Positions 10,252 to 12,769 of a stretch of DNA of 64,000 nucleotides are shown one piece after another; the stretch's first letter is position 1; the number at the start of each line of letters is the position of its first letter. The notes under the pieces were generated by a model. It did no database searches and was not told the origin of the DNA. It worked only from the letters and a program-made list of their open reading frames with translations. This DNA comes from the human T2T-CHM13v2.0 reference genome, Homo sapiens. The stretch lies in assembly GCF_009914755.1 (NCBI RefSeq), contig NC_060938.1; one strand, given 5' to 3'. The translations under genes were made by a program, and so were the position numbers.

Positions 10252-11004
10252 TTTTGCATTTAGTGTTTAGTACATAAAATTCAAATCTGGGACCATTATA
10301 TTCAGGTCCTGGAAAAATTATTCTGAGGCTATTTTGTCTTAGACTGGAGAGACAGATAGATATTGGATATCATAAAAGTTTTATAAATGACTCAATTATA
10401 GAAGATGTTGACAGTATGTTGTGACATGCACATATGATCAGTCGACTGTTAGTGAAATTAAGACTTGGATTTTATTTTAGAGTTCTCTCCCTTCCCCAAC
10501 ACCATTTCTTATTTCTCATCAGTATGACTGCCACTCCCTACCTTCATGCATTCCTCTGTCTCATGTTTTCTCTATCAAAATCGTTTCTTGAGAATGAACC
10601 TGAAATTCCTTCTCATGAAAAGCAAAAGTGACAGAAAACAGTTTAAAATATGACCTCAACCTAAAAAATTTGAAATTTAAACAAGAATGAAGGTCCTGTG
10701 GTAAAAGTTGACAAATGACCCTGATGTGTCTCTGGCAAGGAGACTTTTCATTCATAACAAGTATGATGGACTCTGCCAACAACAGATCTAATACCAAATT
10801 GGAATCTCATGGGAAGAGTGAGAAATGGCAAGAAGGTGGCAAATCAGAGTAAAATAAGGGCAGGAGTCAGAGGTGTTGCATCTTTAGTAAATCTTCTCAT
10901 CCTCCAATTTTTTGTCCCTCCTAATAGTTAAACATGGCAAATGACTACTTCTTTTTATCAAGGAGAAACATTTTAAAAATTGCTAATAAAAATGTGACTT
11001 TCAT

Positions 11005-12050
11005 TTATCAATTAGCTTTTGGTGTATAGCAAATCACTCCAAGACCTAAAATTTAAAACATTCATTGTTTTTCGTGGGGTTTTGGATGTAGTTTCCTGAG
11101 AGCCCAGCTGTAGTGGCTGTTATCTCTTTTCTGGATCTGGCCACCCAGCAAGTCTTCCAGGCTCCTAGCTGGTACTGGGCATTGTCTGTGTAGAGCCCTG
11201 TGATGTGAACCACCTGTGGATCTCTCAGCCATGGATATCAGCACAGTATTTGAGGTGTCTCCTGGGTCCTGCAGGAGCAATCTGCTTCCTTCAGGGGGTC
11301 TCTGGGTCCTCTCAGGTTTCCTGATTTATTCCTGCAGTCATTCTGGAGCAGTAATTCACGACGTGAGCCTGCGCTCACTGCTCTGTCCGTCTGAGTCAGA
11401 GCTACAATGTAGTCCTGCATCCCGTCCACCATGATGACTGTGAGTCACTTTCCCCAATGTTTTCTTTGACAGCTCTGAGACTCCTCTCGCTAAAACTAGG
11501 TACTGTCACGATCACAAGGCTCCACAATAGGCCGTTTGCAAGCTGAGGACCAAGGAGAGCCAGTCCGAGTCCCAAAACTGAGGAACTTGGAGTCTGGTGT
11601 TCAAGGGCAGGAAGCATCCAGCAAGGGAGAAAGGTGTAGGCTGGGAGGCTAGGCCAGTCTTTTCATGGGGTTTTGGATTGACTAGGTGTTTCTTCTGGGC
11701 TGAACCAAACTACCTGAAGTTGGATGACTTAGAATTGCCTCATGAACATGTCTGGTTGTGGGCAGTAGTTGGTCTAGGTCTTGTTCACCTGTCTAGCAGT
11801 TGGCTTGGTATTTTCTGAGGCAGGGCCATGTATCTTTCAGAATTCACCGGTCTAGCCCAGGTTCGTTCTCATGGAGGTAGGAAGGTTCCCAGCAACTAGA
11901 GCAAGCCTCAAATTCACAAACCTTTGCTTCTAACATATTTGCTCCTATTTCAAAGTAAGTCAATGACGAGGCCCAGACCCAAGGGTTTGAATGGGCTTCA
12001 TGTTTTGATGGGTGGAGTTTCAAAATAGTTTTGGTCAATGTAGTTACAGT
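11005..12050 (-). mobile_element. Old MLT1-type MaLR LTR split by the 11088-11659 insertion
   Basis: aattagcttttggtgtatagcaaatcactccaa...catt before the insertion; resumes with tgactaggtgtttcttctg...gcccagacccaaggg after it. Confidence 0.5.
11088..11659 (-). pseudogene. TSD-flanked composite insertion: probable processed retrocopy of a spliced MLT2A-LTR/L1PB chimeric non-coding RNA
   Basis: 19-bp direct repeat ttttc(g/a)tggggttttggat at 11069-11087 and 11660-11678; minus-strand order MLT2A piece (11659-11508), 72 nt unique (11507-11436), L1PBa-type 5' end (11435-11245), downstream L1PB 5'UTR (11244-11088). Confidence 0.7.
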
Positions 12051-12769
12051 TTGTCATAGATTGTAAATTTTATCATTATGTCTTCAGTCTTTCCTTACTT
12101 ATTGGTCACCCAATATTAGAAATATATTCCTTCTTTGTTTCTGCTTTCTTTCTCCTACTCAATAAAAATATTCTCTCAAGAAAAGTATAATCATTATTTT
12201 TTCTACAAGGAGTGGGTAATCATTCTCTTCCCAAGAAGCCTACTATTTTAACATGGAAAAGGTTTGTTGAGCCTAATATTATCATAATAGGAACAGAATC
12301 ACAGATTTCTACAGACTGATTTGGAGTGAAAGGTTTCAGAGTAAAGAGAGGAATTTCTTTGATCCCGAAATATTGTCATATATGTTCCCAGTGGTACCAA
12401 GCAGTCTTTTTTTTTTTTTTTTTAAAAGTCATTGTTCATCTAGGAAAGCTGGGCTTTTCTTTAAAAGTAGTGCTGACCAAGAAAGATATAATCTACTGGA
12501 AATCCAACCACCAAAATATCTATGTGTCCTTCTCCTGTATCTTTTTGTCTTTTGAATTTATGCTTTTCCTGATATTAAGTTACATTCCTACAATATAAAT
12601 ATGTTGTTCCATCTATCTACCCATCTCAGCAAAGTTCTTTCTCATAGTGTCTCCATGGGACTGAGGAGCCATCCATTGTTTTGTTTTGTTTGTTTTCCAG
12701 GTCCTGACTATATGATAAGAATAGATATACTAAGTAATTGAAAATACCTGCACAAATGTTACCTAAACT

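What the first reader, a model, noticed from the sequence alone, without database searches (positions are those of the whole stretch)
11069..11678. Fossil of a spliced LTR-driven chimeric lncRNA: TSD-flanked retrocopy MLT2A exon -> unique + L1PB exon -> L1PB exon
Seen: a ~570-bp composite interrupts an old MLT1 LTR and is bounded by a 19-bp direct repeat with one CpG-type mismatch. On the minus strand every part is in sense orientation. The MLT2A piece begins at AGACTGGCCTAGCC and stops exactly at ...CCTTGTGATCGT. From recalled consensus: that start lies ~25-30 nt after the MLT2A TATA box, and the stop is immediately followed in the LTR by a GT(G/A)AGT splice donor. MLT2A1/2 LTRs are known promoters and first exons in cleavage-stage primate embryos. 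The piece is joined to 72 nt of non-LTR sequence that runs into the extreme 5' end of an L1PB. Inference: this is not three independent insertions but one cDNA of a spliced transcript that began at an MLT2A TSS elsewhere in the genome. It would be a preserved snapshot of an ancestral germline/early-embryo RNA that repeat annotation would split into unrelated fragments.
Basis: partly seen in the sequence, partly recalled or inferred. Interest (0 to 1): 0.85.

Follow-up and report, generated by a model that had tools for sequence, protein, structure and literature searches.

The report
LTR first exon fused to L1 start
A 572-base insert flanked by a duplicated target site is an ancient DNA copy of a hybrid RNA: the first exon of a retroviral LTR promoter joined to the very start of an L1 element, and three similar hybrids lie elsewhere in the genome.

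Summary
A 19-nt direct repeat (18/19) brackets a 572-nt insert at 11088-11659, sense on the minus strand. Simulated sequence gave such a repeat 0 of 2000 times.

- **Head (insert nt 1-152):** an MLT2A-type LTR piece. In 29 genomic LTR copies, nt 1 lies 30-32 nt after a TATA-like box in 24, and nt 152 is followed by GT[GA]A[GA]T in 25.
- **Linker (nt 153-224):** 72 nt with no other copy found in the genome.
- **L1 part (nt 225-572):** colinear with the extreme 5' end of an L1.

[quoted passage not shown] Three more loci (chr10, chr11, chr12) carry the same head, a short linker and an L1 5' end. The chr11 linker is two properly spliced exons from chr3.

I read it as a non-canonical, 3'-truncated member of the published class of 5'-chimeric L1 insertions (Law and Burns), here with an LTR-derived head. 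Whether the RNAs joined in cis or in trans is unresolved. Interest is moderate.

The parts
11069..11087 (.). Left copy of the 19-nt target-site duplication. It is the 3' copy in the sense of the insert. Its last 5 nt (11083-11087) are also homologous to the L1.
11088..11435 (-). First ~348 nt of an L1 5' UTR, from the L1 terminus at 11435. It is colinear with genomic copies. Homology runs on to 11083.
11436..11507 (-). 72-nt linker with no other copy found in the assembly. It ends in ...CACAG followed by TC, just before the L1 start.
11508..11659 (-). MLT2A-type LTR 'head'. It runs from the TATA-predicted transcription start to the base before the LTR's GT[GA]AGT splice donor.
11660..11678 (.). 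Right copy of the target-site duplication (the 5' copy in the sense of the insert).
11004..11068 (.). Left part of the old host repeat that was split by the insertion.
11679..11896 (.). Right part of the same old host repeat. It is colinear with the left part in one chr3 paralogue.

Best explanation
A hybrid RNA or cDNA was inserted once, by an L1-type target-primed reaction, into an old LTR.

Shown:
- Its 5' part is the first exon of a transcript that started at the TATA-directed start of an MLT2A-type (HERVL) LTR elsewhere in the genome.
- That exon was cut at the LTR's own 5' splice site.
- It is followed by 72 nt, possibly a further short exon.
- Its 3' part is an L1 RNA, from L1 nt 1.

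Inferred (about 0.4, against 0.33 for cis): the two RNAs came from different loci and were joined at the L1 5' end. The join would be either a jump of the L1 reverse transcriptase from the end of the L1 RNA onto the exon RNA, or trans-splicing. This is what Law and Burns propose for first-exon/L1 chimeras.

Inferred (about 55:45 over a later deletion): reverse transcription was primed not on a poly(A) tail but inside the L1 5' UTR. The 3' end of the nicked target (...TGGAT) paired there with AUCCA at about L1 +348. This gives a 3'-truncated copy without poly(A), while staggered breaks 19 nt apart gave the duplication.

The element is a fossil, and I see no sign of a present function.

The confidence given (0.4) is for the full statement including the trans join. 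For the core alone (one RNA-derived insertion of an MLT2A-head/L1 hybrid, cis or trans) I would say about 0.8.
For: - **Single insertion.** The 18/19 repeat sits exactly at the edges of the composite, with 0 of 2000 simulations matching it. The flanks are colinear in a paralogue.
- **RNA origin of the head.** It begins 30-32 nt after a TATA-like box (24 of 29 LTR copies) and ends at GT[GA]A[GA]T (25 of 29).
- **L1 joined at its terminus.** 21 of 29 alignments begin at insert nt 221-228, and the upstream flanks are unrelated.
- **Recurrence.** chr10, chr11 and chr12 carry the same head, ending at the same base. Linkers of about 5, 133 and 26 nt then lead to the L1 start. A two-anchor pattern finds exactly these four loci and none in the reversed control.
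- **Real splicing in the analogue.** The chr11 linker is two chr3 exons 6.5 kb apart, with genomic ...ACACAG|exon|GTGCCT and ...TTTTTCAG|exon|GTTTGT. Eight more nt and the L1 start follow.
- **No source L1 for chr11.** The junction 30-mer has no second copy at 3 or fewer mismatches.
- **Microhomology.** L1 homology runs 5 nt into the duplication. L1 copies continue ...ACATCCATAGG where ours reads ...ACATCCAAAAC.
- **Published class.** First exons end at donors, the L1 starts within its first 10 bp, short untemplated bases occur, and 15 of 17 source genes lack an intronic L1.
Against: - No poly(A) is present, and neither nick site resembles the L1 endonuclease preference TTTT/AA. The sites read GGAT/TG and TTGT/TT on the plus strand (the preference is quoted in PMC2836564).
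- The 72-nt linker has no source anywhere in the assembly. Both the cis and the trans version need one.
- Target-site duplications and poly(A) tails of the three analogous loci were not found within the 10, 10 and 8 kb fetched. Their status as single insertions is therefore inferred.
- With lenient scoring, BLAST extends LTR homology 1-38 nt upstream of the head start in chr10, chr11 and chr12. A shuffle test did not support this, but their starts are less sharp than ours.
- No MLT2A lies within 8 kb upstream of the chr3 exon.
- The bias towards short linkers comes partly from my searches, which could only find linkers up to about 150-230 nt.
- No outgroup genome was available.
Confidence: 0.4

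Rival explanations
1. A source L1 sat downstream of an MLT2A LTR. A transcript from the LTR was spliced from the LTR donor to a cryptic acceptor 72 nt upstream of that L1. It then read into the L1 (a spliced 5' transduction) and was retrotransposed.
For: The head runs from the predicted start site to the donor, and the L1 is joined at its nt 1. Law and Burns document just such a case: RAP1GDS1 exons spliced to an acceptor 15 bp upstream of an intronic L1PA2, with four progeny.
Against: The 72 nt, which would be the source L1's genomic flank, has no second copy in the assembly. The same search method did find 51-66-nt matches at 80-95% for the chr11 linker. For chr11, the 8-nt-plus-L1 junction has no second copy. 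The four linkers are unrelated to each other, so four separate sources would be needed.
Confidence: 0.33
2. The insertion was a canonical full-length chimeric L1 with poly(A). Later, a deletion of about 6 kb between the ATCCA in the L1 5' UTR and the ATCCA at the start of the 3' target-site copy removed the L1 body and tail. This rival concerns only the 3' end and can combine with either the cis or the trans origin.
For: Five-nt repeats lie at both putative breakpoints. The analogous chr10 and chr11 loci carry long L1 bodies. The published class is mostly L1s longer than 5 kb.
Against: The deletion would have to end exactly at the poly(A)/duplication border. The implied first nick (GGAT/TG) would still be a poor endonuclease site. 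No L1 remnant lies elsewhere in the window.
Confidence: 0.3
3. This was a DNA-level event. A double-strand break was repaired by copying about 570 bp from an existing chimeric L1 locus (templated insertion or ectopic gap repair), with the 19-nt repeat coming from filled-in staggered ends.
For: There is no poly(A) and no endonuclease-type site, and one junction shows microhomology.
Against: No donor locus with the linker exists. The 5' edge coincides with a transcription start, which a DNA copy has no reason to respect. A 19-nt duplication fits the geometry of L1 insertion.
Confidence: 0.08
4. Three independent nested insertions or truncations happen to lie side by side, and the repeat is chance.
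For: Repeat annotation would list three unrelated fragments.
Against: None of 2000 simulations gave such a repeat. The boundaries fall at the start site, the donor and L1 nt 1. The same architecture occurs at four loci, with none in the reversed-pattern control.
Confidence: 0.03

Closest known systems
5'-chimeric LINE-1 insertions carrying first exons of mRNAs or lncRNAs (Law and Burns, bioRxiv 10.1101/2025.02.02.635956; Cell Genomics 2026, PMC13174262)
   Same: First exon(s) lie in sense orientation upstream of the L1. The exon ends exactly at a splice donor. The L1 begins within its first few bases. A few extra bases may sit at the junction. The whole is bracketed by a target-site duplication.
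   Different: Here the head is the transcribed part of an ERVL LTR, not a unique gene exon. 'MLT2' does not occur in their main text or in the four supplementary tables I could search. Ours keeps only about 348 nt of L1 and has no poly(A) or endonuclease motif. Three of their supplementary files (PDFs) could not be read.
MLT2A1 'conserved head + variable tail' chimeric RNAs of human 8-cell embryos (review PMC13690279; commentary PMC13579372; the primary paper was not in the library)
   Same: There is a shared 5' MLT2A1 segment joined to other sequence, often LINE1.
   Different: Those are present-day RNAs. This is a DNA copy fixed in the genome tens of millions of years ago. I could not compare the exact head boundaries, because the primary paper was not seen.
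Endonuclease-independent (non-classical) L1 insertions (recalled: Morrish 2002, Sen 2007; not read here)
   Same: 3' truncation, no poly(A), and microhomology at the 3' junction.
   Different: As I recall, those lack target-site duplications. This one has a clean 19-nt duplication.
U6/L1 and other template-switch chimeric retrogenes (search listing only: PMC4476161, PMC2104539)
   Same: Two RNAs are copied into one insertion by the L1 machinery.
   Different: In those, the L1 part is usually 5'-truncated and carries the poly(A). Here the L1 part is its 5' end only.

Membership tests
Canonical L1-mediated retrocopy (target-primed reverse transcription) | Target-site duplication of about 7-20 bp | tested here: met
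   19 nt, 18/19 identical; 0 of 2000 simulations
Canonical L1-mediated retrocopy (target-primed reverse transcription) | Poly(A) tail at the 3' end | tested here: not met
   There is no A-run before either repeat copy on either strand
Canonical L1-mediated retrocopy (target-primed reverse transcription) | Nick site resembling TTTT/AA | tested here: not met
   The inferred nicks are GGAT/TG and TTGT/TT. The preference is as quoted in PMC2836564
Canonical L1-mediated retrocopy (target-primed reverse transcription) | Marks of a processed RNA (start at a transcription start, loss of intron) | tested here: met
   The head starts 30-32 nt after a TATA-like box in 24 of 29 copies and ends at the donor in 25 of 29. 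The acceptor side is not testable because no source was found
5'-chimeric L1 insertion (Law and Burns class) | First exon in sense orientation, ending at a splice donor, upstream of the L1 | tested here: met
5'-chimeric L1 insertion (Law and Burns class) | L1 part starts at or near L1 nt 1 | tested here: met
   15 of 29 alignments start at insert nt 225 and 21 of 29 at nt 221-228; upstream flanks are unrelated
5'-chimeric L1 insertion (Law and Burns class) | Near full-length L1 with poly(A) and endonuclease motif | tested here: not met
   Only about 348 nt of L1 are present, with no poly(A)
MLT2A (HERVL LTR) | Match to the family model in a repeat library | not testable with these tools
No Dfam or RepeatMasker was available. 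The piece is 91-94% identical to 39 genomic LTR copies. A recalled DUX4-type motif (YAAYCYAATCA) lies 54-61 nt upstream of the head start in 9 of the 29 copies fetched.
L1PB | Match to a subfamily consensus | not testable with these tools
The piece is homologous to 40 L1 5' ends at 81-87%.
Endonuclease-independent L1 insertion | No target-site duplication | tested here: not met
   A 19-nt duplication is present
Twin-priming (5'-inverted) L1 insertion | An inverted arm plus a sense arm with poly(A) | tested here: not met
   All three parts lie in one orientation and there is no second arm

The most novel reading that the evidence does not exclude
The four MLT2A-head/L1 loci would be fossils of L1 retrotransposition inside cleavage-stage embryos tens of millions of years ago, at a time when the MLT2A promoter and donor already worked as they do today.

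The heads would be free 5' exons, cut at the donor, onto which the L1 reverse transcriptase jumped from the end of its own RNA. That would supply the missing mechanism for first-exon/L1 chimeras that have no acceptor in the L1, and a route by which L1 swaps its 5' UTR.
Probability: 0.15. Interest if true: 0.75.

Novelty: new variant of a known kind. Interest (0 to 1): 0.45.

Why it matters
Repeat annotation would split this insert into three unrelated fragments, but it records one ancient RNA.

- It shows that the MLT2A start site and splice donor used in human 8-cell embryos today were already in use when this L1 family was active.
- It shows that such transcripts met the L1 machinery in the germ line or early embryo.
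- It extends the recently described first-exon/L1 chimeras to LTR-driven heads, with four loci.
- It adds a case with a duplication but no poly(A), whose 3' junction sits on a microhomology. That bears on how L1 reverse transcription can be primed.

It is a fossil with no sign of present function.

Tried and rejected
- **Parent locus for the 72 nt.** The whole-assembly search returned only itself. There was also no match in the 292,278 bases held.
- **Source for the chr11 chimera.**
  - Its two exons map to chr3.
  - No MLT2A or L1 lies in the 8 kb upstream.
  - No chr3 LTR is among the 40 scored head matches.
  - The L1 junction has no second copy.
- **More members.** A second anchor pattern found only chr11.
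- **Common source for the four heads.** They share 0-5 differences pairwise, no more than ordinary LTR copies do (mean 1.7, maximum 5). The 29 copies had been picked for likeness to our head, so this comparison is biased.
- **Duplications and poly(A) of the chr10, chr11 and chr12 elements.** None was found in the 10, 10 and 8 kb fetched, because the L1 bodies are interrupted by Alus and rearranged.
- **Paralogues of the host repeat.** Each flank search returned itself. The left flank added two weak hits, of which one proved colinear with both flanks.
- **Apparent likeness of the chr11 filler to the flank of locus L018.** It is not significant.
- **Rfam.** Nothing relevant.
- **Literature.** Searches on 5' transduction with upstream promoter and splicing gave 0 papers. 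A search for MLT2A with L1PB gave three papers; passages read in two of them and the abstract start of the third do not mention such chimeras.

Full report
**The observation**

The window is human chr14 (T2T). The repeat finder gives one 19-nt direct repeat, at 11069-11087 and 11660-11678, 18/19 identical. The mismatch is CG against CA. In 2000 first-order Markov simulations of 10800-11950, none contained any direct repeat of 18/19 or better. The repeat brackets 572 nt (11088-11659), whose parts all read in sense on the minus strand.

**The L1 part**

The whole assembly could be searched. With the insert as query, 40 of 5018 candidates were scored. Insert nt 225-567(572) matched L1 elements at 81-87%.

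- In the 29 loci fetched, 15 alignments start exactly at nt 225 and 21 start at nt 221-228.
- Upstream of that point the loci are unrelated to each other, often with a few G. So nt 225 is the L1 5' terminus.
- The alignments are colinear (343 nt against 337-345 nt), so I see no second junction inside the L1 part.
- All 29 copies run on past our end. They read ...CTCAGGAAGCCACATCCATAGGAAAAGG..., where ours reads ...CTCAGGAAACTACATCCAAAACCCC.
- Four of these copies aligned to the window reach 11083-11087. L1 homology therefore overlaps the left repeat copy by 5 nt (ATCCA).
- No other piece of the first 1.8 kb of this L1 lies in the window.
- There is no A-run at either end.

**The LTR part**

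Insert nt 1-152 matched LTR copies at 91-94% (40 of 2987 candidates scored).

- Among the 29 copies fetched, a TATA-like hexamer starts 30-32 nt before nt 1 in 24. It starts at 13 or 21 nt in 2, and 3 have none.
- The six bases after nt 152 are GTGAGT (14), GTAAGT (9), GTGAAT (2), CTAAGT (2), GAGAGT (1) and GAGCCA (1).
- The piece is therefore what an LTR-initiated RNA would retain after cleavage at the LTR's own donor.
I had no repeat library to test them.
- A recalled DUX4-type motif lies 54-61 nt upstream of the head start in 9 of 29 copies.

**The linker**

The 72 nt between the two parts (searched as 80 nt, with 4 nt of flank on each side) hit only itself at maximum E 10. It matched nothing else in the 292,278 bases I held. 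As a control of sensitivity, the same tool found 51-66-nt matches at 80-95% for another linker.

**Three more loci**

- chr10:117966424 (+), chr11:112687990 (-) and chr12:123248573 (-) carry the same head, ending at the same base.
- Linkers of about 5, 133 and 26 nt follow, and then the L1 start.
- A pattern of one head anchor and one L1 anchor up to 150 nt apart finds exactly these four loci and none in the reversed control. The anchors were designed on the four.
- A second, independent pattern finds only chr11, so the group is small.
- With lenient scoring, BLAST extends LTR likeness 1-38 nt upstream of the head in those three loci. The stretch is A-rich, and a shuffle test gave scores inside the null range. 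Their starts are therefore less certain than ours.
- The four heads and the four L1 parts are no closer to each other than to ordinary copies, and the linkers are unrelated. These look like independent events.

**The chr11 linker is spliced RNA**

- Its nt 1-63 and 63-125 match chr3:28113039-28112977 (87%) and chr3:28106521-28106459 (95%). Both are on the same strand, 6.5 kb apart.
- The chr3 flanks read ...ACACAG|exon|GTGCCT and ...TTTTTCAG|exon|GTTTGT.
- After the second exon's donor position come 8 nt, and then the L1 start.
- I found no MLT2A or L1 in the 8 kb upstream of the first exon.
- No chr3 LTR appears among the 40 scored matches of the chr11 head.
- The 30-nt L1 junction has no second copy at up to 3 mismatches.

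**The host site**

Each flank search returned itself; the left flank added two weak hits. One of those hits, on chr3, is colinear with window 11004-11076 and then 11686-11740, 11730-11755 and 11852-11896. The flanks are therefore two halves of one old repeat. Its name (MLT1) was not tested.

**Reading**

The composite moved as one piece, because the duplication brackets it. Its 5' part bears the marks of RNA: a transcription start and a splice donor. I take it for a retro-inserted hybrid of an MLT2A-initiated exon RNA and an L1 RNA.

It fits the class that Law and Burns describe. I read the abstract and sections 24, 25, 32 and 34 of the preprint. In their 17 hg38 insertions:

- first exons lie in sense orientation upstream of the L1;
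- six end exactly at donors;
- the L1 often starts within its first 10 bp;
- short untemplated bases occur at some junctions;
- 15 source genes have no intronic L1.

They propose trans-splicing, and they document one cis case (RAP1GDS1). 'MLT2' occurs neither in their main text nor in the four supplementary tables of the published version. Their table of exon chimeras has no chr14 entry. The chr10 and chr11 rows I saw are other loci, and chr12 appears there only as the source exon of a chr9 insertion (only the first two occurrences per term were shown, and three PDF supplements could not be read).

That MLT2A1 today makes 'conserved head + variable tail' RNAs, often with LINE1 tails, at human genome activation is stated in PMC13690279 (passages) and PMC13579372 (text). 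The primary study is not in the library.

**What is unusual here**

There are only about 348 nt of L1, no poly(A), and nick sites unlike TTTT/AA. Yet the duplication is a clean 19 nt, and the 3' junction sits on a 5-nt microhomology. There are two readings:

- Priming inside the L1 RNA by the target end ...TGGAT.
- A later deletion between two ATCCA repeats.

I slightly favour the first. Only orthologues can decide.

Cis against trans joining is also open. The missing source of the 72 nt weighs equally on both. My searches could only find short linkers, so their shortness is not evidence either way.

**Limits**

- There was no repeat library and no other primate genome.
- Each genome search scored at most 40 candidates.
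- Duplications of the three analogous elements were not reached.

Noticed in passing
L018 (G000 chr4:155452065-155452216, minus strand): A full-length L1 5' end of the same family is preceded by about 123 nt that match some 39 loci at 86-92%. Most of those loci lie on chr19 at 20-24 Mb and chr7 at 65-66 Mb, which I recall as zinc-finger gene clusters. It looks like another first-exon/L1 chimera with a different head.
   Followed up: partly
L038 (G000 chr12:81544254-81544403): An LTR copy begins at the very same base as our head, with unrelated sequence upstream, but runs on past the donor (GTGAGT...). It could be an unspliced retrocopy from the same start site or a truncated LTR.
   Followed up: no
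L039 (G000 chr11:91929530-91929679): An LTR copy with an intact upstream part breaks off exactly at the donor position and continues with unrelated sequence.
   Followed up: no
L064 + L070 (G000 chr12:123240900-123248899): In the chr12 chimera, L1 homology covers nt 1-194. About 940 nt of other, partly L1-5'UTR-like sequence follow before the L1 resumes. Several Alus interrupt the body.
   Followed up: partly
L063 (G000 chr11) and chr3:28112977-28113039: The first 60 nt of the first chr3 exon in the chr11 linker also match seven other loci at 80-85%, so this exon is itself repeat-derived.
   Followed up: no
L062 and L063: The chr10 L1 loses homology at about nt 970, inside ORF1, and resumes some 6 kb later. 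The chr11 L1 jumps from about nt 930 to what I recall as ORF2-like sequence, an internal deletion.
   Followed up: partly
window 12172-12236 (-): A sub-threshold Rfam match to a nematode snoRNA family (23 bits against a gathering score of 65, E 0.05). I take it for chance.
   Followed up: no
window 10947-10961 and 10997-11011: A 15-nt direct repeat at 80% identity lies in the AT-rich left flank. It is probably chance.
   Followed up: no
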